Shown here in pieces: positions 6,151-52,315 of a DNA stretch of 64,000 nucleotides; positions within the stretch are counted from its first letter, which is position 1; every line of letters begins with the position of its first letter. The DNA is from Escherichia phage MN04: the sequence record MT129654.1. One strand, written 5' to 3'. A model generated the notes under the pieces. The model did no database searches, was not told where the DNA came from, and saw nothing but the letters and a program-made list of their open reading frames with translations. The position numbers and the translations under genes are program-made.

Positions 6151-6180
6151 GTTTACATACACCATGGATGGTGTTACTAT
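6151..6180 (+). promoter_or_regulatory. early promoter cassette (GTTTAC, TACTAT-like -10, palindrome ACACCATGGATGGTGT in spacer)
   Basis: sigma70-like spacing; shared downstream core CCTATCAACTA. Confidence 0.5.
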
Positions 6181-6211
6181 CTTCCTATCAACTACATGAG
6201 AGGAAAACAAA

Positions 6212-6472
6212 ATGGATATCAAATTATATTACGCTAAACACAAAGTTACGGGTAAAGTTGTTGCCGCAATGTACGATGCATCAGGTGAAGATGTTATTAC
6301 GGAATTATCCCTTTCTAATTGTAGATTTCTTCGTCCTTTGATAGCGTCAAAAAAAGATTTACAAAAACTTATCGACGGTAAATTAGATAATGTCGATGAT
6401 ATAGATATCCATTATGAACTCCGCCATGCACTGAATGATGGGTTTATGGAAATAAAAGAGCTAGTATTATGA
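6212..6472 (+). CDS. hypothetical early protein (86 aa)
   Basis: ATG after GAGAGGAAAA SD, downstream of early promoter at 6151. Confidence 0.4.
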   Translation: MDIKLYYAKHKVTGKVVAAMYDASGEDVITELSLSNCRFLRPLIASKKDLQKLIDGKLDNVDDIDIHYELRHALNDGFMEIKELVL

Positions 6473-6562
6473 GTAGCAAAATGTGGTGCCTTATTTGGAT
6501 AGCCTGTATCCCAGTGATTTGCGTATGTTTTAGTTTATTGTTGTGGAAATTGGCATAAATCA

Positions 6563-6614
6563 GTATACATCTCCATTAGACATGATATTATAGACCTATC
6601 AACTAATGGAGATG
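6563..6614 (+). promoter_or_regulatory. early promoter cassette with long-range inverted repeat covering the SD
   Basis: GTATAC, 17 nt, TATTAT; arms CATCTCCATTAG 6568-6579 and CTAATGGAGATG 6603-6614. Confidence 0.5.
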
Positions 6615-6617
6615 ATT

Positions 6618-6728
6618 ATGAAAAACTTACTTAAAGCAATTTGGAACATGTTTGTGTTATTGGTTGTATTGAGCATTTTCCCAATAGTTTTTATGATTGA
6701 CCATGTACGTGTATTCTTTAACTTCTGA
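6618..6728 (+). CDS. hypothetical small membrane peptide (36 aa)
   Basis: ATG after GGAG SD; hydrophobic core FVLLVVLSIFPIVFMI; below track cutoff. Confidence 0.25.
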   Translation: MKNLLKAIWNMFVLLVVLSIFPIVFMIDHVRVFFNF

Positions 6729-6738
6729 GGAAAATATT

Positions 6739-6885
6739 ATGGGTAATCGAATTTATAAAGTAAAGTTGCATGGTAAAGTGATTACTACCGTTAGTTTTAA
6801 TTTTTATATCAGCGCTGACTGCGCCCGCGATATCCTCATCGAGGAAGGATATAGCGAATACATCCAAATTGAAGAAGTTCTTTAA
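6739..6885 (+). CDS. hypothetical protein (48 aa)
   Basis: ATG preceded by TGAGGAAAATATT cassette; track start 6697 is non-ATG. Confidence 0.3.
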   Translation: MGNRIYKVKLHGKVITTVSFNFYISADCARDILIEEGYSEYIQIEEVL

Positions 6886-7140: not shown

Positions 7141-7485
7141 ATGTCTAAAGTATTTTTTGGTAATTCTAAAGTTATGTTCTTTGAGCAACTCAGTCTTAAA
7201 GAGGCATTGGCAGCCTTCAATCAAGAACTGGTTACTGGGTTAGATTCAAAAACTATGGCAAGTGCGGATTTCGTTTTCGTTCAAGACCCGGATACAGGGT
7301 TTTATCGATTCATCAAATTCCGTATGAGCATGGACCCTGACTATCGTAGTGCTTACTATGTGAGTTACGAAAATGTTATCGAAGAATTACGTGATACCTA
7401 TGGACGTGCTTTGAACCCACTGAATAAGGTTTATAATGCGTCCTTTTATACGAGCGGATTTATTTTAGAACAGCTACAAAAATAG
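7141..7485 (+). CDS. hypothetical protein (114 aa)
   Basis: ATG preceded by TGAGGAAAATATT cassette. Confidence 0.4.
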   Translation: MSKVFFGNSKVMFFEQLSLKEALAAFNQELVTGLDSKTMASADFVFVQDPDTGFYRFIKFRMSMDPDYRSAYYVSYENVIEELRDTYGRALNPLNKVYNASFYTSGFILEQLQK

Positions 7486-7513
7486 TTTACAACCTCGAGA
7501 ATCATGTTATAAT
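7485..7513 (+). promoter_or_regulatory. early promoter of ndd (GTTTAC, 17 nt, TATAAT)
   Basis: Perfect consensus hexamers; CGAGAA/TTCTCG inverted repeat flanks the -10. Confidence 0.6.
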
Positions 7514-7562
7514 GGTTCTCGTTGACTGGATAACAAAACATTAATCTACTGAGGAAATTGAT

Positions 7563-8012
7563 ATGAATACTTATATGACTCGCGGTAACGTTCTGTCTGC
7601 TGGTGCTACTACTGTTGCTTATGTTAAGAATGGCGAATACCAAAATGGTAAGCCTTCTAAAGAAATCTCAGCCCAGCCAGGCTTCTACTTCTTTGTTAAA
7701 GGTGAAGCAGATTCTCGTGTCGTAGCCGCTCGCTTTTATGTCGGCAACCAACGTTCAGCTCAAGGTCTTGATGGTATTGTGGCTAACATTCGTAAGAAAC
7801 GTTCGCAATCAGCTCGTACTATGGCTGTGAATGGTGTAGTGTATGAAGTTCTTTATGTACCTGCTTCTAAAATGAAACCACTGACTACAGGTTTTGGTAA
7901 GGGTCAAATTGCAATGGCTTTCACTCGCAACCATAGTTCCGACCTTCAGACCCTGGAAGAAATGAACCGCATGTTGGCTGATAACTTTAAATTCGTTCTG
8001 CAGGCTTACTAA
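7563..8012 (+). CDS. ndd: nucleoid disruption protein Ndd
   Basis: 149 aa; C-terminus [18 protein letters not shown]...[20 protein letters not shown] matches recalled T4 Ndd; TATAAT early promoter upstream. Confidence 0.85.
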
Positions 8013-9778: not shown

Positions 9779-9879
9779 GCCTTGGAGTCGAGTTCTTGTT
9801 ACTCTGTATCTTTGCTGTTATCCTAGGCCTGGCGACAGGCTTAGCTATAGGTTTAATAGCAGCCCACTTTAAAAAGTAA
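9775..9879 (+). CDS. hypothetical small membrane peptide (34 aa)
   Basis: ATGA overlap with gene 52 stop; hydrophobic; followed by terminator. Confidence 0.25.
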   Translation: MSLGVEFLLLCIFAVILGLATGLAIGLIAAHFKK

Positions 9880-9900
9880 GGAACCTTCGGGTTCCTTTTT
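9880..9900 (+). terminator. rho-independent terminator after gene 52 operon
   Basis: GGAACC-TTCG-GGTTCC hairpin + TTTTT. Confidence 0.6.
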
Positions 9901-9919: not shown

Positions 9920-9948
9920 GTTTACATCTGCTTTAAACATGATACTAT
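9920..9948 (+). promoter_or_regulatory. early promoter cassette, repeat copy 1
   Basis: GTTTAC, 17 nt, TACTAT; contains TGCTTTA (MotA-box-like). Confidence 0.5.
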
Positions 9949-9975
9949 AGACCTATCAAATAAATGAACTGAAAC
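9927..9975 (+). repeat. 49-nt direct repeat, copy 1
   Basis: TCTGCTTTAAACATGATACTATAGACCTATCAAATAAATGAACTGAAAC identical to 10271-10319. Confidence 0.8.
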
Positions 9976-9996
9976 AAACAACCCGGAGATACAAAA

Positions 9997-10224
9997 ATGA
10001 AATTTAAAATCGAAAACGAAATCGTTAAAGCTAAAAATGCTCTGACTGCTAACAAACTGGTTGTAGATGGTATTGAATATGATATCTGTGGAGTTCGTGA
10101 AGAAAAACCCGGTGTTCTGACTTTCTTCACAATGATTTTTAAATTTAAAGGTGACACAGAATTCAAACAGTTTGATTTTGCCCCTGAAGACGAAATCGAA
10201 GTTCGTAATCTGAACATTAAGTAA
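9997..10224 (+). CDS. hypothetical protein (75 aa) flanked by duplicated promoter cassettes
   Basis: ATG after GGAGAT SD; bracketed by the 49-nt repeat at 9927 and 10271. Confidence 0.4.
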   Translation: MKFKIENEIVKAKNALTANKLVVDGIEYDICGVREEKPGVLTFFTMIFKFKGDTEFKQFDFAPEDEIEVRNLNIK

Positions 10225-10263
10225 GTACTTTATTAGAGCTCTTGAAAAAGAGCTCAAAATAAA

Positions 10264-10292
10264 GTTTACTTCTGCTTTAAACATGATACTAT
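10264..10292 (+). promoter_or_regulatory. early promoter cassette, repeat copy 2 (upstream of motA)
   Basis: Near-identical to copy at 9920. Confidence 0.5.
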
Positions 10293-10319
10293 AGACCTAT
10301 CAAATAAATGAACTGAAAC
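10271..10319 (+). repeat. 49-nt direct repeat, copy 2
   Basis: Identical to 9927-9975. Confidence 0.8.
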
Positions 10320-10329
10320 GGAGATTAAA

Positions 10330-10965
10330 ATGTCTAAAATTACTTATATCATCAAAGCTTCTGAAGACGCCCTGAATGAAAAAACCGCTTCAATCTTAGT
10401 ACATATCATCAAGCATAACTTCATCACTTCAGGCGAAGTCCGTGAAGCCCTGAGTGAACAATTTAGTGCAGCGGTAGTTAACTCTAACATTGGTGTATTG
10501 ATTAAGAAAGGATTCATCGAAAAATCTGGTGATGGACTGGTGGCTACGGGTGAAGCAATGGACCTAGTTCAAAAAGCTGCTGACCTGTTCGCTTCTGAAA
10601 ATGCTCCAGAGATGTTGGAAAAACGTAAAACTCGCAGTTCACGTGGTGTTACTCCTGAAATGGTAGTATTGGCTGGTGAAGTTAAATCTTTGTTAGAAGA
10701 CCGAATCGAGATTCGTGAAATCGCTGAAAACCGTAGCAATCTTGAAGTTCGATTCGCTAAACGTACCAACGGTATTCGTCAAATCGAAGTCCGTCGTGAC
10801 GGAATGATGCGTATCTTCGGTTATAATATGACCGATAAAGAAAAACAAGTGTTTACTTCCTTGAATCTTGATGTTAAGATTAAGACTGGTGGTAAGAATA
10901 CTTATATCGACTTCCAAAACGTATCATCTGAAGTTATCAAAACCGTAACCAACGCAATTATCTGA
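10330..10965 (+). CDS. motA: middle-transcription activator MotA
   Basis: 211 aa as in T4; N-terminus MSKITYIIKASEDALNEKTASIL and NSNIGVLIKKGFIEKSGDGL resemble T4 MotA. Confidence 0.85.
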   Translation: MSKITYIIKASEDALNEKTASILVHIIKHNFITSGEVREALSEQFSAAVVNSNIGVLIKKGFIEKSGDGLVATGEAMDLVQKAADLFASENAPEMLEKRKTRSSRGVTPEMVVLAGEVKSLLEDRIEIREIAENRSNLEVRFAKRTNGIRQIEVRRDGMMRIFGYNMTDKEKQVFTSLNLDVKIKTGGKNTYIDFQNVSSEVIKTVTNAII

Positions 10966-12410: not shown

Positions 12411-12499
12411 GCACGATTTCAATAAGGCTTCGGTCCATAAGGACAAGAAGAAAAATTTTAAAGAGTCCAAGCGTAAGCAGAAACATAAGGGTAAAGGGT

Positions 12500-12658
12500 A
12501 TGAGTCATAACTTAGAGAATACCGTAACAGGTATGCGTACGCGTGAGCAGGAGTGCTTTGAGGAATTCCTAGGAGCTGATTTTAAGTTCCAGGAACCTAT
12601 TGAAGAAATGTATCAGGAATATGTTAAAAAGAACGAAGAACATGTTTACAATCCATAA
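12500..12658 (+). CDS. hypothetical small protein (52 aa)
   Basis: ATG with AAGGG SD; below track cutoff. Confidence 0.25.
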   Translation: MSHNLENTVTGMRTREQECFEEFLGADFKFQEPIEEMYQEYVKKNEEHVYNP

Positions 12659-12672
12659 GGATATGTTATTAT
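12644..12672 (+). promoter_or_regulatory. early promoter of asiA
   Basis: GTTTAC, 17 nt, TATTAT. Confidence 0.5.
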
Positions 12673-12713
12673 AGCCTTATCAGATAATGTCGTACTGAAT
12701 TGAAGAGAATATT

Positions 12714-12989
12714 ATGACTAAAATTGAAATCGTTTCCGAAATTGCTACTATTGTTTCCATTTTGATTAAAACGGATTGTGAAGACATCATGCAACGCCGT
12801 GATGAGTTTATTGCCTTTTTGAATGAGTTGGGTATTCGTAATGAACATGGAAAGGAACTTAACGGTCTATCTTTTAATAAACTCTTTAAGTCTTTAACTG
12901 AAGATGAACGTGATACTCTTATTGAGCAATTTAATGAAGGGTATGAAGATATACACCGTTATCTAATGATGTATACCTCCAATTTTTAA
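12714..12989 (+). CDS. asiA: anti-sigma70 factor AsiA
   Basis: 91 aa; IVSEIATIVSILIK...FIAFLNELGI...LIEQFNEGYEDIHRYLMMYT closely resembles T4 AsiA. Confidence 0.85.
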   Translation: MTKIEIVSEIATIVSILIKTDCEDIMQRRDEFIAFLNELGIRNEHGKELNGLSFNKLFKSLTEDERDTLIEQFNEGYEDIHRYLMMYTSNF

Positions 12990-18513: not shown

Positions 18514-18537
18514 GAAAAAAAGGAACCCGAAGGTTCC
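18514..18537 (-). terminator. rho-independent terminator after gene 35
   Basis: GGAACC-TTCG-GGTTCC hairpin; T-run on minus strand. Confidence 0.55.
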
Positions 18538-23764: not shown

Positions 23765-23793
23765 GTTTACTTCTTCCAGGGCCATGATATAAT
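23765..23793 (+). promoter_or_regulatory. early promoter of rnh
   Basis: GTTTAC, 17 nt, TATAAT. Confidence 0.6.
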
Positions 23794-23824
23794 AACCTTC
23801 TACACTAATTGGACAGAGGTTCAT

Positions 23825-24772
23825 ATGAACGATTTAGATTTTTTACTTCCTGAAGAAGACCAACAAAAAGATGGATTTTTACTCCTGGATTTCAGCCAAA
23901 TCATTATGGCGGCAGCCTTCCAAGAATTTGGTGAAAACGCTGGATTTCCTAAAGTAACAACAGCAATGCTTCGACATCTCGTCTTGAATTCAATCAAGAA
24001 AAACATTAAAGACTTTAAAAAACAAGGTTACAACCAACTAATCATTTGTGTTGATAACTCTAAATCAGGTTATTGGCGTCGTCGTTATTCTTCTTATTAT
24101 AAGAAAAACCGTGCTAAGGCACGTGACGAATCACCATTTGATTGGGAAGGCTTATTCACTGCAATGCATATTATTGTGGATGAGCTTGAACAAAACATGC
24201 CTTATATTGTTATGAATATCGACACAATCGAGGCCGATGACCATATTGCTGTATTGACTCGCATCCTTACGGCTTTAGGTCATCCTGTTATGATTGGCTC
24301 TTCTGATGGTGACTTTACCCAACTTCATAAATTCCCTGGTGTAAAACAATGGTCTCCAATGCAGAAAAAATTCGTCAAAACAAAATCTGGTGATGCTCTG
24401 CTTGATTGTGTGACCAAGGTTGTTAAAGGTGACCGCAAGGATAACGTTGCAAGTATTAAAGTTCGTGGTGATTATTGGTTGACAATGGTTGAAGGTGAAC
24501 GTACTCCTAGCACTCGTGCTAAGGAACTTGAAGCAATTGCTCTGAATTATTATGACCATGATATAATTAAAACACTTCTTACTGAGGAACAATATGAACG
24601 TTTCTGTGAAAACCAAATCTTAATTGATATGGACTTTATTCCAGATGATATTGTTGCTTTAATTACTGAAAGATATAATACGTATAACAAACCTTCGAAA
24701 TCTAAAGTTTATCCTTATTTCGTTAAATCAGGTTTGTCTAAACTAACTGCTACAGTAGCTGATTTTTATTAA
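23825..24772 (+). CDS. rnh: RNase H (5'-3' exonuclease / flap endonuclease)
   Basis: 315 aa; GYWRRRYSSYYKKNR, EADDHIAVL, SSDGDFTQLHK motifs match T4 RNase H. Confidence 0.9.
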   Translation: MNDLDFLLPEEDQQKDGFLLLDFSQIIMAAAFQEFGENAGFPKVTTAMLRHLVLNSIKKNIKDFKKQGYNQLIICVDNSKSGYWRRRYSSYYKKNRAKARDESPFDWEGLFTAMHIIVDELEQNMPYIVMNIDTIEADDHIAVLTRILTALGHPVMIGSSDGDFTQLHKFPGVKQWSPMQKKFVKTKSGDALLDCVTKVVKGDRKDNVASIKVRGDYWLTMVEGERTPSTRAKELEAIALNYYDHDIIKTLLTEEQYERFCENQILIDMDFIPDDIVALITERYNTYNKPSKSKVYPYFVKSGLSKLTATVADFY

Positions 24773-25985: not shown

Positions 25986-26074
25986 TGCTTCAAATCAACT
26001 GTGTTAATATACTAACTCAATCTGTTAAAAACTGTCAATAAAATACAACTGCTAAATCTGCTAAGGTAAATAAT
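25986..26074 (+). promoter_or_regulatory. gene 32 5' leader (candidate autogenous translational operator)
   Basis: AU-rich unstructured leader before gp32 start; analogous to the T4 gp32 operator. Confidence 0.35.
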
Positions 26075-26980: not shown

Positions 26981-26997
26981 GTTATTGATTTATAATG

Positions 26998-27022
26998 GGA
27001 AGACTTCGGTCTTCCCTTTTTG
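26998..27022 (+). terminator. rho-independent terminator after gene 32
   Basis: GGGAAGAC-TTCG-GTCTTCCC hairpin + TTTTT. Confidence 0.65.
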
Positions 27023-27032
27023 GCATTTAATG

Positions 27033-27061
27033 GTTTACAATGCCTTTAAACATGATACTAT
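27033..27061 (+). promoter_or_regulatory. early promoter cassette
   Basis: GTTTAC, 17 nt, TACTAT, then TCCTATCAACTA. Confidence 0.5.
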
Positions 27062-27090
27062 AGTCCTATCAACTACATGAGGAAATAAAA

Positions 27091-27462
27091 ATGGAAATTG
27101 GTAAATTTTACGTATTAGACCCTGCTGCCAAAAAACAATTCATCGCTGGTAGTCCTGATGATAATTATAATTCGTGCATAGTAAGATTGTTGGAACAACA
27201 TGGCAATTCCTTCAAAGTCCTGGATATGAGTTATATTGAAGGTGATTATTTTGTTGAAAAAGTTGAAATGAAAGATGGCACCATCCTGAATAGTATGGGC
27301 GGTGCTGATGAGTACTTTGAACTCGGTGAATGGGAATTCTGTCACTTCCTGGAAGTTGATGGCGATGCTCCTGCCGTTGATACCCAAACTATCCATGTAC
27401 AGGTAAACCACAAAAATGCGGCAGAAGTTGTTGCCTTGATTAAAGCTACCTTTGGAATTTAA
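27091..27462 (+). CDS. hypothetical protein (123 aa), paralog A
   Basis: ATG after GAGGAAATAAAA SD; shares (E/D)EYFEL..E.EF..F motif with next ORF. Confidence 0.4.
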   Translation: MEIGKFYVLDPAAKKQFIAGSPDDNYNSCIVRLLEQHGNSFKVLDMSYIEGDYFVEKVEMKDGTILNSMGGADEYFELGEWEFCHFLEVDGDAPAVDTQTIHVQVNHKNAAEVVALIKATFGI

Positions 27463-28112: not shown

Positions 28113-28148
28113 GTTTACAAGGTCTATAGGCATGATACTATAGACCTA
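28113..28148 (+). promoter_or_regulatory. early promoter cassette with stem-loop around -10
   Basis: GTTTAC, 17 nt, TACTAT; AGGTCTATAG/CTATAGACCT inverted repeat. Confidence 0.5.
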
Positions 28149-28173
28149 TCAACTAACGAGTGAGGAAAATAAA

Positions 28174-28401
28174 ATGGCTAAGGTTAATATTGATATCGTT
28201 GATTTTGAATACACTTACGAAGTTATCCGTAATCGTTATCCTTCTTTGACTATGACTTATATCAAAGACACACAATTCTGTAGTATGCAAATTGAAGTCC
28301 AAGGTCCTCTTGAAGACCTTACCCGCTTTATGGCTGATGAATATTGCGATGGTATGCATGCTGAAGACGCTGAATTTTATATGGGCTTAATTCAAAAATA
28401 A
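28174..28401 (+). CDS. hypothetical protein (75 aa)
   Basis: ATG after GAGGAAAATAAA SD; own promoter cassette. Confidence 0.4.
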
Positions 28402-28403
28402 GT

Positions 28404-28440
28404 GTTTACCTAAGGCTATGGTAGTGATACTATAGCCTTA
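28404..28440 (+). promoter_or_regulatory. early promoter cassette with stem-loop around -10
   Basis: GTTTAC, 17 nt, ATACTA; AAGGCTAT/ATAGCCTT inverted repeat. Confidence 0.5.
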
Positions 28441-28459
28441 TCAATTTGAGGAGAATAAA

Positions 28460-28699
28460 ATGAAATTACAACGTGAATCAATTAAAGATTCTGAAGTTAA
28501 AGGCAAATGGTACTTCACAATCCAAGGTAACAATCCGGAAGCTCTGGAAAAAGCCGAACAAGCTTTGTGTGAAATGGGCTGGAAAGATGAGTGTGATGGA
28601 TGTCCTCTTTATGAAGATGGTAGCTCATCTGGTTTCTGGATTCACCATTCCGATGTTGATCAATTTAAAGCTGACTGGAAAGTCGCTAAGAAAGCATGA
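28460..28699 (+). CDS. hypothetical protein (79 aa)
   Basis: ATG after GAGGAGAATAAA SD; own promoter cassette. Confidence 0.4.
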   Translation: MKLQRESIKDSEVKGKWYFTIQGNNPEALEKAEQALCEMGWKDECDGCPLYEDGSSSGFWIHHSDVDQFKADWKVAKKA

Positions 28700-35251: not shown

Positions 35252-36396
35252 TTGAATTATATGATAACTTGATGACTTTGGTTAAAAACTCGACTAAATC
35301 TAAGTTCTTCTTTAAAGACTTCCAGAGTGCTCTAGGAGTCAACTATCGCATCTTTAGTTATAACTATGCATCGTACAGCGATTGGTTGGAAGACGGCGCG
35401 CTAGAGTGCCGAGGCATTATGTTTGAAATGGACGAGAACGGTCCTGTACGTATCGCTGCTCGTCCTATGCAAAAGTTCTTTAATCTCGATGAAAATCCAT
35501 TGACTATTGGTTTGGATTTATCACAAGAAAATATCGACCTCGTAATGGCTAAGGAAGATGGTTCCTTGATTTCTACTTTCATGGACAGACAATATCTTTC
35601 TGTTAAATCTAAAGGCTCTATCCATTCGTCGATGGTACATGATTCTTTACGTTTCCTTCGACTCCCTGAAAACGAGGCCTTCGCTGCTCGTTTAGAAGAA
35701 ATTACTAAAGCAGGCTATACATGTAACCTCGAGTATGTTTCGCCTACTAACCGTATTGTGCTGGCTTACCAAGAAACAAACCTTATCTTACTGAACGTTC
35801 GTAATAACGAAACGGGTGAGTATATCCCTTACGCTGAACTGTTTAAAGATGGCGCTCTGCGTAAGCATTTGGTTAAAAGCTATGAACTCGCCGAAGGTGA
35901 TTTTGTTGACAATATCCGTAAACAAGAGGGTATTGAAGGCTTTATCTTTGTACTTAAAGATGGCACGTTCTTTAAACTCAAAACCGCTTGGTATAGCGCA
36001 CTGCATCATACCAAAGATTCCATTAACAATAACGAACGTTTATTTGAAGTTGTAGTGGCTGGTGGAACCGATGACCTCCGAGGTTTGTTCAGCACTGATT
36101 CATTTGCTATCGAGAAAATCAATGCATTTGAACGTACCCATTTAGACTACTTAGAACAGTCCTTGGCTTTGTTAGAAGCAGCATATTCCCAGCTCAAAGG
36201 CCGCGACCGTAAAGACTACGCTGTTACTGGTCAGTTAATCCTCAAAGACTTCCCAGGGCTGTTCTCTATTCTTATGCAGGCGTACGTAGACGGTATTAAT
36301 TATGATACGGTCGTGGACCAGATTAACTCTGTGTTCTTGAAAAATCATAAGGCCCAAATCCCTGAAAAATATTTGAAAGAAATTGTAATAGAGTAG
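35248..36396 (+). CDS. rnlA: RNA ligase 1 (gp63)
   Basis: 382 aa; YRIFSYNYASYSDWLEDGALECRGIMFEMDENGPVRIAARPMQKFFNL matches T4 Rnl1. Confidence 0.9.
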   Translation: MIELYDNLMTLVKNSTKSKFFFKDFQSALGVNYRIFSYNYASYSDWLEDGALECRGIMFEMDENGPVRIAARPMQKFFNLDENPLTIGLDLSQENIDLVMAKEDGSLISTFMDRQYLSVKSKGSIHSSMVHDSLRFLRLPENEAFAARLEEITKAGYTCNLEYVSPTNRIVLAYQETNLILLNVRNNETGEYIPYAELFKDGALRKHLVKSYELAEGDFVDNIRKQEGIEGFIFVLKDGTFFKLKTAWYSALHHTKDSINNNERLFEVVVAGGTDDLRGLFSTDSFAIEKINAFERTHLDYLEQSLALLEAAYSQLKGRDRKDYAVTGQLILKDFPGLFSILMQAYVDGINYDTVVDQINSVFLKNHKAQIPEKYLKEIVIE

Positions 36397-36447
36397 TTTA
36401 CATCTCCTCATGATGTGTTAGTATAGACTTACCAACTAATGAGGAGA
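36396..36447 (+). promoter_or_regulatory. early promoter cassette of alc with SD-covering inverted repeat
   Basis: GTTTAC, 17 nt, TAGTAT; arms TCTCCTCAT 36403-36411 and ATGAGGAGA 36439-36447. Confidence 0.5.
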
Positions 36448-36454
36448 AAACAAA

Positions 36455-36955
36455 ATGAATATGCAAATGATTACCAACGAAATGGTTGTTAAAGCTTTTG
36501 GTGACTCTACTGACGGTATCCAAGTTTTTAAAGGTTCTCGTGCAGTAGGTTATCTAACCGATCTTCGTGTTACTTTAGCTAAAAATGCTAAAAAGAAAAT
36601 TAAGCAAAAAGAATACTCTACCCGTTATGCAGAAGAAAAGCGTGAAGCCATGCCCGAAGCTGTTAACTCTATGGTTGAGTTTCTCCAAAACAACCTTTCT
36701 AAGTATGATGCTGAGGTATTCATTAATATTAGCCAACCTAATGTCAAAATCGCAGGAATCACTTTCTATTTGATTTGCGACCCATTAAGCGATAAGTTTA
36801 ATCGCCTTGGCATTTCGAGCCCTTACCATACCGCTGAAGAATTGTGCGTGATGTTCGAAACGTATAAAATCCAGTGTGAAAACCCTAAAACGGTTCTTAT
36901 CAACTCCCTGTCACGTGATGACATCATCGAGATTATTACTAAATGTCTAAATTAA
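36455..36955 (+). CDS. alc: probable Alc (host transcription unfolding/termination factor)
   Basis: 166 aa (T4 Alc 167 aa); located between rnlA and spanin genes as in T4; sequence not independently verified. Confidence 0.5.
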   Translation: MNMQMITNEMVVKAFGDSTDGIQVFKGSRAVGYLTDLRVTLAKNAKKKIKQKEYSTRYAEEKREAMPEAVNSMVEFLQNNLSKYDAEVFINISQPNVKIAGITFYLICDPLSDKFNRLGISSPYHTAEELCVMFETYKIQCENPKTVLINSLSRDDIIEIITKCLN

Positions 36956-37686: not shown

Positions 37687-37721
37687 GTTTACAAACTCTT
37701 GGGAGCAGAGTATAATGCTCC
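37687..37721 (+). promoter_or_regulatory. early promoter cassette
   Basis: GTTTAC, 17-18 nt, TATAAT; GGAGCA/TGCTCC inverted repeat flanking -10. Confidence 0.5.
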
Positions 37722-37750
37722 TACGGATTATAAAAATTGAGGAAATTATT

Positions 37751-38229
37751 ATGACTTTACGTGATAACAGTTTTGTAGCTAAGCCTGAATACATTTCAGG
37801 TGTTAAATCGCCCGCATTACAAAAGCTCCTAAAACTAGGGTCCTGTGCAAGTACACCACTTGAAAAGAAGGCAACTTTCGATTTTGCTTGGGCTATTGTG
37901 GACGGTATTGATGTAGTAAGACAGGTAACTTTTTATGCTCCAGGGTCTATTGAGCCTTCGCAGATTATTAATTTGAATGGAAGTAATTATATTACCATCC
38001 AACAGTGGTATCGTATGATGCGCCCAGTTTGGGAATACCCTGAATTCATTGAAGAGTACAATGAAAAAGAACGTATTCGTGAATTGGTGAAAAGTTTTGA
38101 ATACGCGGCTAAACGCCATGGCCAAATGCAATCCGCAGTAACTCTCGGCGATGTTCCTGAAAGTGTTGCTTATGAATCCGGTAAAACCCTTAAAACCTGC
38201 CGTGAAGAACTTTATAAGGAGCTTGGTGT

Positions 38230-38233
<4 letters not shown>
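37751..38233 (+). CDS. hypothetical protein (160 aa)
   Basis: First ATG with GAGGAAATTATT SD; track start 37715 non-ATG. Confidence 0.35.
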
Positions 38234-40127: not shown

Positions 40128-40165
40128 GTTTACATCATGGTAGGACTGTGGTATAGTAGTCCTAC
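40128..40165 (+). promoter_or_regulatory. early promoter cassette with stem-loop
   Basis: GTTTAC, 17 nt, GTATAG; GGTAGGACT/AGTCCTACC inverted repeat. Confidence 0.5.
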
Positions 40166-40187
40166 CGAAACAAATGAGGAAATCGAA

Positions 40188-40742
40188 ATGAGCAAGTTCT
40201 TTGAAGAGCGTAAGTTTTATAAGTTCGGTAGTGAATACACTAAAAACAAATTCACTAATAACGGCGCTTATGGCCTCAATACAGCTTTTGCCAAGTATGT
40301 AGGTATGAATCCGTTTGAAGTTGAAATTGATTACCATAATGGGCGTGAACGTGTAAGCCGAATTCGTGTATATGACGAGATGATGTTTGTCGACCCTAGC
40401 AAAATCACAGGTAATCCTGATGATGCAAATGCTGTTCTTTTTAATTCCTCAGGCTTTTTTGGCCATGAATTCGATTACTTTATTGAAGTGGTACGTCCAC
40501 TGGCCTCGGTGAGTATTCCTGAAAATGGTGGACCTAAACAGGTAAAAGCCACTGCGGATTGGAAAGTGCTTATCGTTAAAAATGGTAAGATTGAAGTTCA
40601 TTCTCGCCATAACACAAAGGAACAAGCCGATCGTCAGGCTGAAGAGCTTTTGACCAGTTCGTTCCAACAAGTGTGTTATATTGTTAAAGGCGACGTTATT
40701 CAAGCTACCACTACCAAACAACTTAAGTTGGAGACCATCTAA
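40188..40742 (+). CDS. hypothetical protein (184 aa)
   Basis: ATG after GAGGAAATCGAA SD, downstream of promoter at 40128; track start 40077 non-ATG. Confidence 0.4.
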   Translation: MSKFFEERKFYKFGSEYTKNKFTNNGAYGLNTAFAKYVGMNPFEVEIDYHNGRERVSRIRVYDEMMFVDPSKITGNPDDANAVLFNSSGFFGHEFDYFIEVVRPLASVSIPENGGPKQVKATADWKVLIVKNGKIEVHSRHNTKEQADRQAEELLTSSFQQVCYIVKGDVIQATTTKQLKLETI

Positions 40743-43350: not shown

Positions 43351-43378
43351 GGGACTCTTCGGAGTCCCATTTTTGTTT
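43351..43378 (+). terminator. rho-independent terminator
   Basis: GGGACTC-TTCG-GAGTCCC hairpin + ATTTTTGTTT. Confidence 0.65.
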
Positions 43379-43396: not shown

Positions 43397-43460
43397 GTAT
43401 ACATCTCCAGTAGGCATGATACTATAGACATGTACCAAATAATACGAAAACAAACTGGAG
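43397..43460 (+). promoter_or_regulatory. early promoter cassette with SD-covering inverted repeat
   Basis: GTATAC, 17 nt, TACTAT; arms CTCCAGT 43405-43411 and ACTGGAG 43454-43460. Confidence 0.5.
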
Positions 43461-43470
43461 AATAAAATGA
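43431..43470 (+). repeat. 40-nt direct repeat (leader/RBS cassette), copy 1
   Basis: TGTACCAAATAATACGAAAACAAACTGGAGAATAAAATGA identical to 43837-43876. Confidence 0.8.
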
Positions 43471-43802: not shown

Positions 43803-43842
43803 TTTTACTTTGGTACAGGTTGTGTTATTATAGACCTGTACC
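43803..43842 (+). promoter_or_regulatory. early promoter cassette with stem-loop
   Basis: TTTTAC, 17 nt, TATTAT; GGTACAGGT/ACCTGTACC inverted repeat. Confidence 0.45.
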
Positions 43843-43876
43843 AAATAATACGAAAACAAACTGGAGAATAAAATGA
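43837..43876 (+). repeat. 40-nt direct repeat (leader/RBS cassette), copy 2
   Basis: Identical to 43431-43470. Confidence 0.8.
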
Positions 43877-44238: not shown

Positions 44239-44279
44239 TCTTAAAAATGGAGGCTTCTGCCTCCTTTGAGGAAAATATT

Positions 44280-50159: not shown

Positions 50160-50162
50160 ATA

Positions 50163-52286
50163 ATGGAAAATTTAAACGAAGTTTTTGATAGTGATTCCGC
50201 TAAAAACTATCCAGTAACAAATCTTAAGCCGGGCTCCGGTATCCCACAGATTTTCTCTATCCAAGCACCAGGTAACGATAACCTGGTTGCTCGTATGGTA
50301 TCTTATGCGTCTCAAGGAGACGCTATTAAAATGGTTAAGCCAGGCGACAAATATGTCCATGTTATTTTAATGAGTTTGTCGAGCAAGGGTGCTCCAGCCG
50401 AACTCAAAGGTGGTCTTGGTTCCGACCCACTTGGTGCATTGAATACTATTTTTGATACGATATACGAACAAGTAAATAAACTTAAAATGGATGCGGTTTT
50501 GTTCCGTTTCCCTACCAAGAAAATGAAAGGTAAGGGCCCTACTGTTCAGCGTGTATTAGCTCGTTTGGCGATGGCACGTACCGGTGGTAAGTTTAAAGTT
50601 GTCGATGATATGTTCCAGTTTAGTGGTAAACATACATACGTTCTTTTAGCACGTCGTGGCACTAATATCGAAGATATCAAGGGTATGCCTGAAATTGATG
50701 CGGACCTTTATACCAAGGTTGAGTCTAAAGTCGGTGAAGTTTATGTTTCTAAGAAAACCGGCCAGGCCGTAAGTAAGGTCGAAGCCGTAGCGGCATCTAT
50801 TGCACAGGTTGAAGAGAAACGTACCGATAAGGCTGTTATCTCTCGTACTAAAATTTCCCGTCGTATGGCTGCAGCAGCGCAGTATTCTACTGCCGAACCT
50901 GAAACTTTATCACCTAAAGAATTGCAGGTTTATAACGAGTTTGAAGCTTCTGTCCCTGTTCACTCGGCCGAAGGCCCTGAGAACGAAGGTATTGAGCAGA
51001 TTAGTCAGAACTTTAAAAAAGGTGCTATTACTAAAATGCGTCAGGCCTCTCAGTTTAAATCTAAGAGTGAGGACCTTGCCAACTTTAGATACACCATTGC
51101 TCTCACGCACGCTTTAATGACTGATAGTAAATTTAAACTAAATTATGCTAATAGAGATAAACAAGGGTTTGAAATTTACTCTAATAATATGGCATTTTTT
51201 AATACGGAAGTCGATAGACTTTTAAGTGGCCTTTCTCAAATCAATACTACCAATAGTCTGGATATTATTAAGAGAATTGTTAATAACCTGAGTGCCCGTT
51301 TTCAGGGGTCTCCTTCAGAGAAAGCATCCCGAATTGCTTTCGCTATGGAAGCCGTTTATAAACTGATTAACGATTCTATTAGCGATGCATATGCTTATTC
51401 AGGCGAGCTCATTAAACCTAAGGGCTTGACCAAAGACGAAAGTAATGCCATTATTGAATATTGTGCGGCTGAATATGCTCCTATGAACTTATTCCTTTTA
51501 GGTAAACCTGAATCCGAAAACAATACAACAGCTATTAAATTGATTAAGGATTTAGACTCAGCATTTACCAAGGGTATTAAACTTCCTAAGGGTACTATTT
51601 TGTATCGTGGTCAGGATTTACCATACAAAATTCTGCGCCATAATATTGATAACAAAACATTTTACTTTAAGAACTTTGTGTCCGCTTCATTAAAGCCTAA
51701 TATCTTTGGCGAATTTGGTAAAAATTATATGGCCCTCGACAACCAAGCAGTTTTTGTTGGCGATGAAGGTTCTTTATCCTCCGCTGATGAGTTGTTTAAA
51801 TTAGCCAGTGGTAGTTCATCTGATGTAGGCGAAGTTGATGATGAAGAGGTAGAATGGGAAGAAGACGAGTTCGGTAATCCAATTGCACCTGAAGGCCCTG
51901 CAGACAGGATTGCTGAAATCGGTATGGTTATTCGAGGTGCTGAAGCAGTTAAAGTTATCGCTCCTGGTGACCTTACAGAATATTCCGAAGAAGCAGAAAT
52001 TATCCTTCCGCGAGGATTATTGTTGAAGGTTGATAAAGTAGCGGCTTTTGCTATGAATGATAGAGTATCTCACAAATACCTTATGGAAGCTACAGTGACA
52101 TCTCCTTCAGAACTCAGTGGGTCCGTTTACGATGGTGACCATCTGATGGAAACCGGTGAAGTTAAATTGATGAATGGGTTTAAAGAATTCCTAGTTTCAG
52201 AATCTGTTTCAGAAAGTAATGAGGCTATGGAAATCCTTGCTGCATCTTTGGACATCTCTTCTTTACCAAATAAATTCAAAATGTAG
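50163..52286 (+). CDS. Alt-like ADP-ribosyltransferase, copy 2 (divergent paralog)
   Basis: 707 aa; N-terminal region clearly homologous to copy 1; ART signature LYRGQDL, FVSASL, EAEIILPRG; central region unrelated. Confidence 0.7.
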   Translation: MENLNEVFDSDSAKNYPVTNLKPGSGIPQIFSIQAPGNDNLVARMVSYASQGDAIKMVKPGDKYVHVILMSLSSKGAPAELKGGLGSDPLGALNTIFDTIYEQVNKLKMDAVLFRFPTKKMKGKGPTVQRVLARLAMARTGGKFKVVDDMFQFSGKHTYVLLARRGTNIEDIKGMPEIDADLYTKVESKVGEVYVSKKTGQAVSKVEAVAASIAQVEEKRTDKAVISRTKISRRMAAAAQYSTAEPETLSPKELQVYNEFEASVPVHSAEGPENEGIEQISQNFKKGAITKMRQASQFKSKSEDLANFRYTIALTHALMTDSKFKLNYANRDKQGFEIYSNNMAFFNTEVDRLLSGLSQINTTNSLDIIKRIVNNLSARFQGSPSEKASRIAFAMEAVYKLINDSISDAYAYSGELIKPKGLTKDESNAIIEYCAAEYAPMNLFLLGKPESENNTTAIKLIKDLDSAFTKGIKLPKGTILYRGQDLPYKILRHNIDNKTFYFKNFVSASLKPNIFGEFGKNYMALDNQAVFVGDEGSLSSADELFKLASGSSSDVGEVDDEEVEWEEDEFGNPIAPEGPADRIAEIGMVIRGAEAVKVIAPGDLTEYSEEAEIILPRGLLLKVDKVAAFAMNDRVSHKYLMEATVTSPSELSGSVYDGDHLMETGEVKLMNGFKEFLVSESVSESNEAMEILAASLDISSLPNKFKM

Positions 52287-52315
52287 TTTACAACACCACA
52301 AGGATGTGGTACTAT
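52286..52315 (+). promoter_or_regulatory. early promoter cassette
   Basis: GTTTAC, 17 nt, GTACTA; CCACA/TGTGG inverted repeat in spacer. Confidence 0.45.

What the first reader, a model, noticed from the sequence alone, without database searches (positions are those of the whole stretch)
6151..52315. Family of at least 14 early-promoter stem-loop cassettes sharing a conserved core
The motif GTTTAC - 17 nt - TA(C/T)TAT recurs at 6151, 6563, 9920, 10264, 12644, 23765, 27033, 28113, 28404, 36396, 37687, 40128, 43397, 43803 and 52286, with weaker -10 matches at a few sites. Many copies share extended identity (CATGATACTATAGACCTATCAACTA) and carry inverted repeats that place the -10 hexamer in or beside a hairpin. 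They always sit in front of small ORFs of unknown function. This matches my recollection of the PeSL (promoter-early stem-loop) elements described in T4-type phages as recombination hotspots for gene shuffling.
Basis: partly seen in the sequence, partly recalled or inferred. Interest (0 to 1): 0.5.

Follow-up and report, generated by a model that had tools for sequence, protein, structure and literature searches.

The report
Early-promoter stem-loop cassettes (PeSLs), Dhakavirus
The window comes from a JS98/JS10-like T4-type coliphage and carries 16 copies of a compact "stop codon, strong early promoter, hairpin, ribosome site" joint between early genes, a known kind of element (PeSL) at which related phages have swapped, gained or lost genes.

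Summary
The window is a Dhakavirus (JS10 about 97% identical). All 15 cited sites belong to one family, and I found a 16th at 7485. All 16 lie on the early-transcribed + strand.

The literal motif fits only 5 sites with N17 and 8 with N15-19. The rest are near-variants.

- **Hairpins:** twelve cassettes carry a hairpin inside the promoter. Four have a separate hairpin just upstream. The hairpins exceed chance, covary, and show a strand-specific G·U bias, so they most likely act in sense-strand read-through RNA.
- **Downstream genes:** these are not only small unknown ORFs. They include motA, asiA, alc, ndd and rnh.
- **Relatives:** seven relatives show cassette-bounded deletions, insertions and replacements, with crossovers inside the conserved core. 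Only events with both ends in cassettes are enriched over a gene-boundary null.
- **Spread:** T4 and Yersinia, Enterobacter and VR7-type phages use the same design with different stems.
- **Subset:** in ndd.4, alc and 30.8 the promoter spacer pairs with the Shine-Dalgarno site. The PeSL papers I read do not list this arrangement.

Verdict: new members of a known kind, of modest interest.

The parts
6151..6214 (+). Cassette before a hypothetical 86-aa ORF (6212-6472). The hairpin lies inside the spacer: ACACCA 6159-6164 pairs with TGGTGT 6169-6174.
   Evidence: (z -2.05). PSD2002 has an extra ORF and a half cassette inserted here.
6563..6620 (+). Cassette before ndd.4 (6618-6728). The spacer pairs with the SD: CATCTCCATTAG 6568-6579 pairs with CTAATGGAGATG 6603-6614.
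   Evidence: 11-bp run; dG -20, z -6.1.
7485..7565 (+). CGAGAATCAT 7496-7505 pairs with ATGGTTCTCG 7512-7521 across the -10.
   Evidence: E 8e-4; z -1.9.
9878..9897 (+). Canonical UUCG-tetraloop terminator with a T-run after gp52, just upstream of cassette 9920.
9920..9999 (+). Cassette before a 75-aa ORF (9997-10224). It has no strong internal hairpin. It forms a tandem pair with 10264, sharing 49 identical nt.
   Evidence: In relatives the ORF between the pair is deleted (PSD2002) or replaced and doubled (IME08, AnYang, Bp7).
10236..10255 (+). Hairpin GAGCTCTTGAAAAAGAGCTC between the stop of ORF 9997-10224 and cassette 10264.
10264..10332 (+). Cassette before motA (10330-10965).
12644..12716 (+). 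Cassette before asiA (12714-12989). ATAAGGATAT 12655-12664 pairs with ATAGCCTTAT 12671-12680. The upstream ORF's stop codon lies inside the 5' arm.
23765..23827 (+). Cassette before rnh (23825-24772). Only a weak hairpin links the TSS region to the SD and start codon in the window. It is a perfect 10 bp in IME08.
26997..27016 (+). UUCG-tetraloop terminator with a T-run after gp32, upstream of cassette 27033.
27033..27093 (+). Cassette before frd.2a (27091-27462).
   Evidence: AnYang joins this cassette to cassette 28113 and deletes 1018 nt.
28113..28176 (+). Cassette before frd.3 (28174-28401). AGGTCTATAG 28120-28129 pairs with CTATAGACCT 28138-28147, enclosing TGn and half of the -10.
   Evidence: (z -3.5).
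28404..28462 (+). Cassette before frd.1/DUF5417 (28460-28699). TAAGGCTATGGTA 28411-28423 pairs with TACTATAGCCTTA 28428-28440.
   Evidence: (z -3.8).
36396..36457 (+). Cassette before alc (36455-36955). The spacer pairs with the SD: TCTCCTCAT 36403-36411 pairs with ATGAGGAGA 36439-36447. The rnlA stop codon TAG overlaps the -35.
   Evidence: (z -3.8).
37687..37753 (+). Cassette before a 160-aa ORF (37751-38233). GGGAGCA 37701-37707 pairs with TGCTCCT 37716-37722.
   Evidence: (z -2.9). The ORF is deleted in IME281, AnYang and Bp7 and replaced in JS10, starting exactly at the ATG.
40128..40190 (+). Cassette before a 184-aa ORF (40188-40742). GGTAGGACT 40139-40147 pairs with AGTCCTACC 40158-40166. 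It is the positional ortholog of T4 early promoter Pe133295.
   Evidence: (z -2.7).
43351..43368 (+). UUCG-tetraloop terminator with a T-run after 30.9, upstream of cassette 43397.
43397..43469 (+). Cassette before gp30.8 (43467-43799). The spacer pairs with the SD: TCTCCAGT 43404-43411 pairs with ACTGGAGA 43454-43461. It forms a tandem pair with 43803, sharing 39 identical nt.
   Evidence: (z -2.4). The JS10/AnYang deletion junction lies inside its core.
43803..43875 (+). Cassette before gp30.7 (43873-44238). TTTGGTACAGGT 43809-43820 pairs with ACCTGTACCAAA 43834-43845.
   Evidence: (z -3.9). The same stem occurs in T4.
52286..52346 (+). Cassette before alt.-3/DUF5498 (52344-52634). The hairpin lies inside the spacer: ACCACA 52295-52300 pairs with TGTGGT 52305-52310. 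The alt stop codon TAG overlaps the -35.
   Evidence: (z -1.4).

Best explanation
These are PeSL-type intergenic cassettes of a Dhakavirus.

**Anatomy.** Each is a 57-145 nt joint made of these parts in order:
- the stop codon of the upstream early gene, set in an A-rich UP-like stretch;
- a T4-type early sigma-70 promoter (GTTTAC, 17-18 nt spacer, TGn, TAYTAT or TATAAT);
- a hairpin;
- a short A/C-rich leader, then the SD and ATG.

**Where the hairpin sits.** Where the intergenic space is minimal (57-77 nt), the hairpin is folded into the promoter. The free spacer supplies the 5' arm. The 3' arm runs from the 3' half of the -10 to about the inferred +1. Where there is more room (105-124 nt), a separate UUCG-loop terminator or hairpin sits upstream.

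**How it works (inferred).** The cassette's own transcript starts at or inside the 3' arm, so it lacks the hairpin. The hairpin therefore forms only in sense-strand RNA read through from upstream promoters. There it marks the end of the upstream message, as an attenuator or as a protector of the 3' end. In the ndd.4, alc and 30.8 cassettes it also masks the SD.

**Consequence for the genome (partly shown).** Copies share 14-49 nt of exact identity. Homologous recombination between copies deletes, duplicates or replaces the ORFs between them, and each exchange leaves a working joint.

**Shown versus inferred.**
- Shown: sequence anatomy, hairpin excess, covariation, G·U strand bias, and cassette-bounded events and hybrid cassettes in relatives.
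- Inferred: promoter activity (by orthology to T4 early promoters), the TSS position, RNA-level function, and the recombination pathway.
For: **Family and promoter anatomy.** The window is a Dhakavirus. T4 has orthologous promoters in front of the same genes. One of them is the annotated early promoter Pe133295, whose start site fits +1 about 7 nt after the -10.

**Hairpins beyond chance.**

**Covariation.** In 11 frd.1, frd.3 and motA cassettes, 82.5% of cells are paired against 29-43% when the partner is slid. Four pairs change on both sides. The covariation score is 0.245 against 0.113, reached by 0 of 500 shuffles. frd.1 orthologs in T4 and in Enterobacter and other phages keep a hairpin across the -10 with quite different stems.

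**Strand bias.** Among internal stem mismatches in 132 distinct cassettes there are 33 G·T or T·G against 4 C·A or A·C.

**Placement of the stop codon.** In 8 cassettes the upstream stop codon lies between 1 nt of overlap and 3 nt upstream of the -35, and these 8 have embedded hairpins. Four of the five cassettes with 105-145 nt intergenic regions have a separate upstream hairpin.

**Recombination.**
- The gp52-motA interval holds 1, 2 or 3 cassettes with 0, 1 or 2 unrelated ORFs in PSD2002, the window and IME08.
- gp30.8 is replaced by a 40%-identical allele exactly between two cassettes, while gp30.7 next to it is 100% identical.
- JS10 and AnYang hybrid cassettes have their junction after TATAGA in the core.
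- The AnYang deletion of 1018 nt joins cassettes 27033 and 28113.
- Alignment overlaps at junctions are 46-63 nt.
- The spacer of the frd.3 cassette has been swapped for the motA type or the frd.2 type in IME08 and PSD2002.
Against: - No experiment here shows promoter, terminator or recombination activity.
- The embedded hairpins have no U-run after them, so they are not canonical intrinsic terminators.
- Four cassettes (9920, 10264, 23765, 27033) have no significant internal hairpin.
- Some orthologous cassettes lost the hairpin after a spacer swap.
- Against a gene-boundary null (16 of about 71 early gene starts carry a cassette), events with at least one end in a cassette are not enriched: 10 of 31, P = 0.86. 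Only events with both ends in cassettes are: 5 observed against 1.6 expected, P = 0.02.
- Many other indels are homing-endonuclease insertions or plain ORF-boundary events.
- The G·T bias could partly reflect avoidance of an antisense -10 hexamer.
Confidence: 0.8

Rival explanations
1. The sites are ordinary strong early promoters and nothing more. The shared core is just the 'uber' UP/-35/TGn/-10 consensus of T4-type early promoters. The inverted repeats are incidental, and the indels near them merely reflect that indels fall at gene boundaries.
For: T4 early promoters have an extended consensus beyond the -35 and -10 (Hinton 2010, PMC2988021). The motif CTATCAA around +1 is shared with T4 promoters. 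Events with at least one end in a cassette are not enriched over a gene-boundary null.
Against: - Stems exceed shuffles and random segments.
- Arms covary, and stems differ in sequence but persist across genera.
- Identity reaches 39-49 nt and runs into the 5'UTR, beyond any RNA polymerase contact.
- Hybrid cassettes and junction overlaps of 46-63 nt place crossovers inside the cassettes.
Confidence: 0.07
2. The hairpins act at the DNA level. They would be cruciforms or recombination signals that are cut or recognised, for example by a structure-specific nuclease, making the cassettes site-specific recombination sites.
For: Arbiol et al. leave open homologous or site-specific recombination and mapped one mini-circle crossover to the loop. 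The JS10 and AnYang junctions lie next to the -10 and loop region.
Against: - Stem mismatches are overwhelmingly G·T on the + strand (33 against 4). These would be C·A on the other strand, so a symmetric cruciform is disfavoured.
- Stem sequences and their register relative to the -10 differ among copies and lineages, so there is no common recognition sequence.
- Crossover points vary: in the core, at the ATG, and at the upstream stop.
Confidence: 0.05
3. The main job of the hairpins is translational gating rather than ending upstream messages. Read-through transcripts carry a structure that blocks ribosome access, so each gene is translated only from its own early promoter. This is the logic known for T4 e, soc, 49 and I-TevI with late promoters.
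For: - Spacer-to-SD runs of 11, 9 and 8 bp occur in cassettes 6563, 36396 and 43397. Cross-paired controls reach at least 8 bp in only 2.1% of cases.
- Predicted SD-to-AUG accessibility drops 3.5-, 1.9- and 1.6-fold in read-through RNA.
- T4 has SD-pairing stems of different sequence before the genes in the same positions: ndd.4 (assigned by position), alc and 30.8 (z -4.9, -5.4, -2.2).
- The mechanism is documented for late promoters (Uzan and Miller 2010, PMC3014915).
Against: - Only 3 or 4 of the 16 cassettes pair with the SD. In the others the hairpin ends 15-25 nt before the SD and predicted accessibility is unchanged.
- Covariation within ndd.4 cassettes is weak: 1 compensatory pair, reached by 33 of 500 shuffles.
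- Some alc orthologs (the metagenomic locus L016 and Yersinia phages) use other hairpin positions.
Confidence: 0.25
4. The inverted repeats are operators for a sequence-specific dimeric protein that switches early promoters off.
For: The mechanism of early-promoter shut-off in T4 is stated to be unknown. The repeats straddle the -10.
Against: The arms differ completely in sequence between cassettes (AGGTCTATAG, GGTAGGACT, TTTGGTACAGGT, GGGAGCA and others), while pairing is what is conserved. The G·T asymmetry does not fit a double-stranded palindrome.
Confidence: 0.03

Closest known systems
PeSLs (promoter-early stem-loops) of RB49/phi1 (Arbiol et al. 2010, PMC2839356)
   Same: - Composite joint of upstream stop codon in an AT-rich stretch, sigma-70 early promoter, stem-loop, then SD and ATG.
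- The stem-loop most often lies between -35 and -10 or overlaps the -10, and contains G-T pairs.
- Many copies per genome, with gene indels and replacements bounded by copies in close relatives.
   Different: - The promoter is the T4 type (GTTTAC, TAYTAT), not near-perfect TTGACA/TATAAT.
- Stems are mixed or AT-rich, not polyG/polyC.
- 11 of the 16 downstream ORFs have Pfam families and include core regulators (motA, asiA, alc), so the cassettes are not mainly linked to ORFans.
- Terminator activity and mini-circles were shown experimentally there and are untested here.
- A spacer-to-SD class is present here that is not among their five positional subclasses.
PeSLs of T4/PST and KVP40/nt-1 (Comeau et al. 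2014, PMC4122927)
   Same: The promoter consensus TTTACW-N17-TAYWAT reported for T4/PST matches these cassettes. Both are associated with indels in hyperplastic regions.
   Different: That paper places the T4/PST stem-loops just upstream of the promoter. Here, and in the T4 orthologs I examined, most stems are inside the promoter and span the -10. Only four cassettes here have the upstream arrangement, three of them canonical terminators.
T4 early promoters ('uber' UP/-35/TGn/-10; Hinton 2010, PMC2988021)
   Same: A-rich upstream region, GTTTAC -35, TGn, -10, and positional orthology to T4 promoters of motA, asiA, alc, frd.1, 30.7, 30.8, alt.-3 and Pe133295.
   Different: The promoter description alone covers neither the covarying hairpin arms nor the role in gene shuffling.
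TIR-masking hairpins with an internal promoter in T4 genes e, soc, 49 and I-TevI (Uzan and Miller 2010, PMC3014915)
   Same: Long transcripts carry a helix that sequesters the SD. A promoter inside the region encoding the 5' arm gives a shorter, translatable RNA. The geometry is the same in cassettes 6563, 36396 and 43397.
   Different: The internal promoter there is a late promoter and delays expression. Here it is an early sigma-70 promoter, so the predicted effect is to confine translation to the early period. This is untested.

Membership tests
PeSL (Arbiol 2010; Comeau 2014) | Sigma-70-type early promoter (-35, 17±1 nt, -10) with an AT-rich region upstream | tested here: met
   All 16 have a -35 hexamer GTTTAC or a one-mismatch variant. 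Eleven have a 17-nt spacer and five an 18-nt spacer. Most have TGn, and all have a TAnnnT -10 and an A-rich upstream stretch. There is positional orthology to T4 early promoters, including the annotated Pe133295.
PeSL (Arbiol 2010; Comeau 2014) | Sequence able to form a stable stem-loop within or next to the promoter | tested here: met
   Twelve of 16 have one inside the promoter and 4 have a separate upstream hairpin. Stems exceed chance and covary.
PeSL (Arbiol 2010; Comeau 2014) | Upstream gene's stop codon at the 5' edge, SD and start codon at the 3' edge | tested here: met
   The stop codon lies between 1 nt of overlap and 3 nt upstream of the -35 in 8 cassettes, and 14-90 nt upstream or inside the promoter in the others. 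An SD and ATG lie 20-43 nt after the inferred start.
PeSL (Arbiol 2010; Comeau 2014) | Repeated in the genome with conservation over tens of bases | tested here: met
   There are 16 copies in 64 kb. Exact shared runs are 14-49 nt. Dhakavirus genomes give 10-14 BLAST places each, against 1-2 in most Tequatrovirus and Mosigvirus genomes.
PeSL (Arbiol 2010; Comeau 2014) | Preferentially in hyperplastic regions, in front of ORFans | tested here: inconclusive
   All lie in early-gene regions. However, 11 of 16 downstream ORFs have Pfam families, including MotA, AsiA, Alc, Ndd and RNase H. Only 16 of about 71 early gene starts carry one.
PeSL (Arbiol 2010; Comeau 2014) | Insertions, deletions and replacements between close relatives bounded by the elements | tested here: met
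   Ten of about 31 events in 7 relatives have an end in a cassette, and 5 have both ends (1.6 expected, P = 0.02). Hybrid cassettes and junction overlaps of 46-63 nt are present. Events with at least one end in a cassette are not enriched over gene boundaries.
PeSL (Arbiol 2010; Comeau 2014) | Stem-loop acts as a transcription terminator or attenuator (shown with lacZ reporters) | not testable with these tools
   By sequence alone, three upstream hairpins are canonical (UUCG loop plus T-run). The embedded ones lack a U-run.
PeSL (Arbiol 2010; Comeau 2014) | Recombination between neighbouring copies gives mini-circles | not testable with these tools
   The tandem pairs 9920/10264 (344 nt apart, 49 nt identical) and 43397/43803 (406 nt apart, 39 nt identical) are the obvious substrates.
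TIR-masking hairpin with internal promoter (T4 e, soc, 49, I-TevI) | SD and/or AUG sequestered in a helix in the longer transcript | tested here: met
   This holds for cassettes 6563, 36396 and 43397, and weakly for 23765. Runs are 11, 9 and 8 bp, against 2.1% of cross-controls reaching at least 8 bp. Predicted accessibility drops 1.6- to 3.5-fold. It does not apply to the other 12 cassettes.
TIR-masking hairpin with internal promoter (T4 e, soc, 49, I-TevI) | The internal promoter is a T4 late promoter (TATAAATA) | tested here: not met
   The promoter is an early sigma-70 type. The cassettes work like this class but are not members of it.
Intrinsic (Rho-independent) terminator | GC-rich hairpin followed directly by a U-run | tested here: not met
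   The feature is not met for the 12 promoter-embedded hairpins, whose 3' arm is followed by an A/C-rich sequence such as ATCAAC. It is met only for the separate upstream hairpins at 9878, 26997 and 43351.
Any Rfam RNA family | Match at the curated gathering score | tested here: not met
   There are 0 matches in the whole window.

The most novel reading that the evidence does not exclude
The promoter-embedded hairpins make each cassette a switch that depends on where the transcript started. RNA started at the cassette's own early promoter lacks the 5' arm and is open. RNA read through from upstream carries the full hairpin. That hairpin ends or stabilises the upstream message, and for alc, ndd.4 and 30.8 it also hides the SD behind an anti-SD-like ATCTCC placed directly after the -35. 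This SD-masking arrangement is kept at the same three gene positions in T4 and in Dhakavirus with different stem sequences. It would confine translation of these genes to the minutes when early promoters fire. It could also account for part of the abrupt, still unexplained fall in early protein synthesis.
Probability: 0.35. Interest if true: 0.5.

Novelty: new member of a known kind. Interest (0 to 1): 0.3.

Why it matters
PeSLs were proposed as a way for T4-type phages to shuffle accessory genes while keeping them expressed. They have been documented in three phage pairs only, and JS98 is mentioned once in passing.

This window adds three things:
- The same elements are abundant in the JS98/JS10 group. 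Hybrid cassettes, and copy-number series of 0, 1 or 2 ORFs at a single locus, support exchange inside the cassette.
- The G·U strand bias and the covariation across genera give sequence-level evidence that the hairpin is selected as sense-strand RNA.
- The SD-pairing subset points to a testable link with the unexplained shut-off of early gene expression in T4.

For annotation, the cassettes mark early transcription units and likely breakpoints of mosaicism in therapeutic coliphages.

Tried and rejected
- **Strict motif search.** It is too narrow, giving 5 or 8 of 16 sites. I replaced it with a profile HMM.
- **Rfam at gathering thresholds.** Nothing was found.
- **One structural alignment for all frd.1 orthologs.** This failed because the hairpin sits in at least three registers relative to the -10 (column sums 46, 47 and 52 in alignment A1). 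I ran the covariation test on the one-register subset (A2).
- **Covariation in ndd.4 cassettes alone.** With 6 sequences the test is weak: 1 compensatory pair, reached by 33 of 500 shuffles.
- **Breakpoint enrichment.** It is very large against a per-base null, since cassettes cover about 3% of the early regions. Against a gene-boundary null, events with at least one end in a cassette are not enriched (P = 0.86). Only events with both ends are (P = 0.02).
- **Canonical terminator reading of the embedded hairpins.** I rejected it because no U-run follows them.
- **Sequence-specific operator reading.** I rejected it because the arms differ between copies.
- **T4 genome review (PMC150520).** It is not held in the library, so statements about the classical T4 early-promoter consensus rest on Hinton 2010.
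- **Limits.** I did not scan the rest of any relative's genome. Copy numbers per genome are therefore BLAST places or counts within the 50-61 kb syntenic stretches.

Full report
**Identity of the window.** Megablast places the window in the genus Dhakavirus, the JS98/JS10-like T4-type coliphages. JS10 is 97.3% identical over 26000-30000. UP19 is 95% identical over 25001-50000. No record matches end to end, so the genome is a mosaic of known relatives. The + strand of the window is the early-transcribed strand. It runs from rIIA and rIIB through ndd, gp52, motA and asiA. The tail-fibre genes gp34-38 follow on the - strand. The + strand then resumes with rnh, gp32, frd, td, nrdAB, alc, pseT, cd, gp31, gp30 and alt, and baseplate genes follow (JS10 and UP19 annotation).

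**The observation.** The literal motif GTTTAC-N17-TAYTAT hits 5 sites (0.07 expected). With N15-19 it hits 8 (0.24 expected). Reading all 15 cited positions shows that the others are one-step variants:
- GTATAC at 6563 and 43397, and TTTTAC at 43803;
- -10 hexamers TATAAT, TAGTAT and TATAGT;
- an 18-nt spacer at five sites.

A profile HMM built from the 15 sites recovers all of them, which is expected by construction. It finds nothing else better than E = 0.3 on either strand, apart from one further copy at 7485 in front of ndd. The family thus has 16 members, all on the + strand. The 25-mer core occurs 5 times with at most 1 mismatch, against none expected.

The downstream genes include ndd, motA, asiA, rnh, frd.2, frd.3, frd.1 (DUF5417), alc, 30.8, 30.7 and alt.-3. 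Five have no Pfam family.

**Anatomy.** Aligned on the -10, the consensus is an A-rich stretch, GTTTAC, a variable spacer, cATGaTAcTAT, then AG.CcTAtcaA. The last part contains a nearly invariant C four bases and T six bases after the hexamer. The seventh base after the hexamer, the inferred +1, is A in 11 of 16 cassettes.

The 5' edge is the stop codon of the upstream gene. TAG overlaps the G of GTTTAC in four cassettes (7485, 36396, 37687, 52286). TAA lies 2-3 nt upstream of the hexamer in four more (28113, 28404, 40128, 43803). In these eight the whole stop-to-ATG distance is only 57-77 nt.

**Hairpins.** They fall into four arrangements:
- The 5' arm lies in the spacer and the 3' arm runs from the 3' part of the -10 to about +1 (7485, 12644, 28113, 28404, 37687, 40128, 43803).
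- Both arms lie within the spacer (6151, 52286).
- The spacer pairs with the SD region (6563, 36396, 43397).
- A separate hairpin sits upstream. It is a C(UUCG)G-loop terminator with a T-run before 9920, 27033 and 43397, and GAGCTCTTGAAAAAGAGCTC before 10264.

Four of the five cassettes with long intergenic regions (105-145 nt) have the separate upstream hairpin. The cassettes with minimal intergenic regions have the embedded one. The simplest reading is that a hairpin is wanted shortly after the upstream stop codon. When space is short it is written into the only free part of the promoter.

**Are the hairpins more than chance?**
- RNA folding from the -35 to the ATG gives z between -2.4 and -6.1 for eight cassettes and about -2 for two more. 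Six give z of -1.4 or weaker: 9920, 10264, 12644, 23765, 27033 and 52286.
- A mismatch-neutral stem finder gives a summed score of 122, against 87 for shuffles and for random window segments (maximum 102.5). Six stems score at least 8, against 0.5 expected.

**Conservation and covariation.** nhmmer finds 14-16 copies in each of the five relatives scanned, within the syntenic 50-61 kb. With IMG/VR loci fetched through Alc, gp30.7, frd.1, the 184-aa ORF and the 86-aa ORF, I collected 132 distinct cassette sequences. Of these, 98 have a stem scoring at least 6.

Upstream of frd.1 a hairpin across the -10 is present in many lineages:
- Dhakavirus: TAAGGCTATGGTA/TACTATAGCCTTA;
- T4: AGGGTAGTAGT/ACTATTACCCT;
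- Enterobacter phage CIP9: TGGTGTAGAGGC/GCTTCTACACCA;
- several others, and even a 235-kb phage that uses a TTGACT -35.

The register relative to the -10 differs between lineages. What is conserved is therefore a hairpin, not a set of columns. On the subset that shares one register (11 frd.1, frd.3 and motA cassettes):
- 82.5% of cells pair, against 29-43% when the partner is slid;
- four pairs change on both sides;
- the covariation score is 0.245 against 0.113, reached by 0 of 500 shuffles.

These sequences are related and the structure was derived from them, so the shuffle figure is not a probability.

**Which strand folds?** Among internal mismatches in the best inverted repeats, found without favouring any mismatch type, 33 are G·T or T·G and 4 are C·A. 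There are about a dozen independent G·T cases, in frd.1, frd.3, ndd.4, rnh, alc and alt.-3 cassettes from several genera. G·U-type pairs on the + strand would be C·A on the - strand. The structure is therefore selected in the sense strand, most simply in RNA read through from upstream. Arbiol et al. also drew G-T pairs in their stem-loops.

One caveat applies. The T is usually a fixed -10 base. A G in place of an A opposite it also avoids creating a -10 hexamer on the other strand.

**Relation to the cassette's own transcript.** With +1 seven bases after the -10, the 3' arm ends at about -1 in 28113 and overlaps +1 in the others. The cassette's own RNA therefore lacks the 5' arm. This is inferred from geometry and from the T4 annotation of Pe133295. 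That promoter is the positional ortholog of cassette 40128 and fits the rule to within 1 nt. The embedded hairpins are followed by A/C-rich sequence, not a U-run, so they are not canonical intrinsic terminators. Attenuation or 3'-end protection is an inference carried over from the RB49 experiments.

**The SD-pairing subset.**
- Spacer-to-SD runs are 11, 9 and 8 bp in the ndd.4, alc and 30.8 cassettes. Pairing each spacer with other cassettes' SD regions gives at least 8 bp in 2.1% of cases.
- All three spacers begin with ATCTCC directly after the -35.
- Predicted SD-to-AUG accessibility falls 3.5-, 1.9- and 1.6-fold in read-through RNA.
- T4 has SD-pairing stems of different sequence before the genes in the same positions: CTGTTCTTCC/GGAGGAACAG, a long stem at alc, and TCCTTTG/CAAAGGA, with z of -4.9, -5.4 and -2.2. 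The first gene assignment is by position and is tentative.
- VR7-type phages keep the ndd.4 pairing with one compensatory change and several G·U changes (weak statistics).

This is the logic known for T4 e, soc, 49 and I-TevI, where a late promoter lies inside the masking hairpin. Here the internal promoter is an early one. The five positional subclasses of Arbiol et al. do not include this arrangement.

**Gene shuffling at the cassettes.** I compared the window with JS10, UP19, IME08, PSD2002, IME281, AnYang and Bp7.

- *gp52-motA interval.* PSD2002 has one cassette and no ORF. The window, JS10, UP19 and IME281 have two cassettes and a 75-aa ORF. IME08 has three cassettes and two ORFs unrelated to the window's. 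Tandem copies within a genome resemble each other more than their counterparts in another genome. That fits duplication or conversion.
- *30.9-30.6 interval.* IME08 and PSD2002 carry a gp30.8 allele only 40% identical in protein, bounded exactly by the two cassettes. The adjacent gp30.7 is 100% identical. JS10 and AnYang lack both genes. They carry a hybrid cassette whose junction lies just after TATAGA.
- *Between gp32 and frd.3.* AnYang joins the 5' half of cassette 27033 to the 3' end of cassette 28113 and loses 1018 nt.
- *At 6151.* PSD2002 has an extra 75-aa ORF followed by a half cassette that lacks a -35.
- *At 37687.* The same cassette precedes three different contexts, with the junction at the ATG.
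- *frd.3 cassette.* It carries a motA-type spacer in IME08 and a frd.2-type spacer in PSD2002, losing its hairpin in both.
- *Stem reuse.* The stem of cassette 40128 reappears in front of alc in Yersinia phages fHe-Yen9-01 and TG1.

**How strong is the 'hotspot' claim?** Of about 31 distinct events of at least 100 nt in the early regions, 10 have an end in a cassette and 5 have both ends. About 16 of 71 early gene starts carry a cassette. On that basis, events with at least one end in a cassette are not enriched (P = 0.86). Events with both ends are enriched: 1.6 expected, P = 0.02. The remaining events are homing-endonuclease or intron insertions and plain ORF-boundary indels. The better evidence for exchange inside cassettes is the junction sequences themselves, together with alignment overlaps of 46-63 nt at junctions. 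Exact identity between copies in the window reaches 49 nt (9920/10264) and 39 nt (43397/43803), and is 14-22 nt among the others. From memory, and not checked here, T4 recombination works down to a few tens of base pairs of homology.

**Comparison with what is known.** Every sequence-level defining feature of PeSLs is met. The exception is the preference for ORFans, which is only partly met. The experimental features (promoter strength, terminator activity, mini-circles) cannot be tested here. The papers I could read mention JS98 only once, for 'PeSL-like sequences' near g43. A full-text search found no description for the JS98 group. No Rfam family matches. One cassette used as a BLAST query gives 10-14 places per Dhakavirus genome, against 1-2 in most Tequatrovirus and Mosigvirus genomes. 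The same design with other sequences is nevertheless present in T4, VR7-type, Yersinia and Enterobacter phages.

**Verdict.** The PeSL interpretation is supported. The elements are new members of a known kind. The points that go beyond the published description are:
- sequence evidence that the hairpin is a sense-strand RNA element;
- the rule linking hairpin placement to intergenic length;
- the SD-pairing subset shared with T4.

None of these is tested experimentally.

Noticed in passing
9878-9897 (+) and 18520-18539 (- strand): The same 20-nt C(UUCG)G-loop terminator AAGGAACCTTCGGGTTCCTT, each followed by a T-run on its own strand, closes gp52 on the early strand. It also sits between gp35 and gp36 on the late strand. 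Further UUCG-loop terminators lie at 26997, 34816 and 43351.
   Followed up: partly
48072-50159 and 50163-52286: There are two tandem alt (ADP-ribosyltransferase) genes, with one internal stretch of about 470-480 nt 72-74% identical between them. AnYang, and by alignment apparently PSD2002, carry a third copy (+3145 and +2440 nt). Breakpoints inside alt differ among relatives.
   Followed up: partly
25983-26062, 34310, 35235, 25332: Relatives carry insertions absent from the window: a homing-endonuclease gene between gp59 and gp32 (PSD2002; ORFs of similar size in AnYang and Bp7), I-TevIII within nrdB (Bp7), a 650-nt ORF before rnlA (IME281) and a 671-nt insert between gp33 and gp59 (AnYang). 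None is bounded by cassettes.
   Followed up: partly
6741-6878: A 137-nt segment inside ORF 6697-6885 is present in the window and JS10. It is absent from IME08, PSD2002, AnYang and Bp7, and apparently from UP19 and IME281 too. It is not associated with a cassette.
   Followed up: no
43467-43799: The gp30.8 of the window is only 40% identical in protein to that of IME08 and PSD2002, while the adjacent gp30.7 is 100% identical. This is a sharply bounded allelic replacement.
   Followed up: yes
9926-9931 and 10270-10275 with SDs near 9984 and 10320: The motA-type cassettes have ATCTGC or TTCTGC after the -35 and a GGAGAT SD. They look like one-mismatch versions of the ATCTCC/GGAGAT SD-pairing cassettes. 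Many cassette SDs contain GGAG, the RegB cleavage motif.
   Followed up: no
L018, L020 (Yersinia phages fHe-Yen9-01 and TG1), upstream of alc: The stem GGTAGGACT/AGTCCTACC of window cassette 40128 appears in front of a different gene (alc) in another genus. VR7-type phages instead have a GGGG-loop-CCCC hairpin enclosing the -35 before alc, which resembles the RB49-type PeSL stem.
   Followed up: partly
44249-44264: The hairpin GGAGGCTTCTGCCTCC plus TTT lies between gp30.7 and gp30.6 in the window, without a promoter. JS10 and AnYang have a full cassette in that position.
   Followed up: partly
12499-12503: JS10 has a 287-nt insertion about 140 nt upstream of the asiA cassette, not bounded by a cassette.
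   Followed up: no
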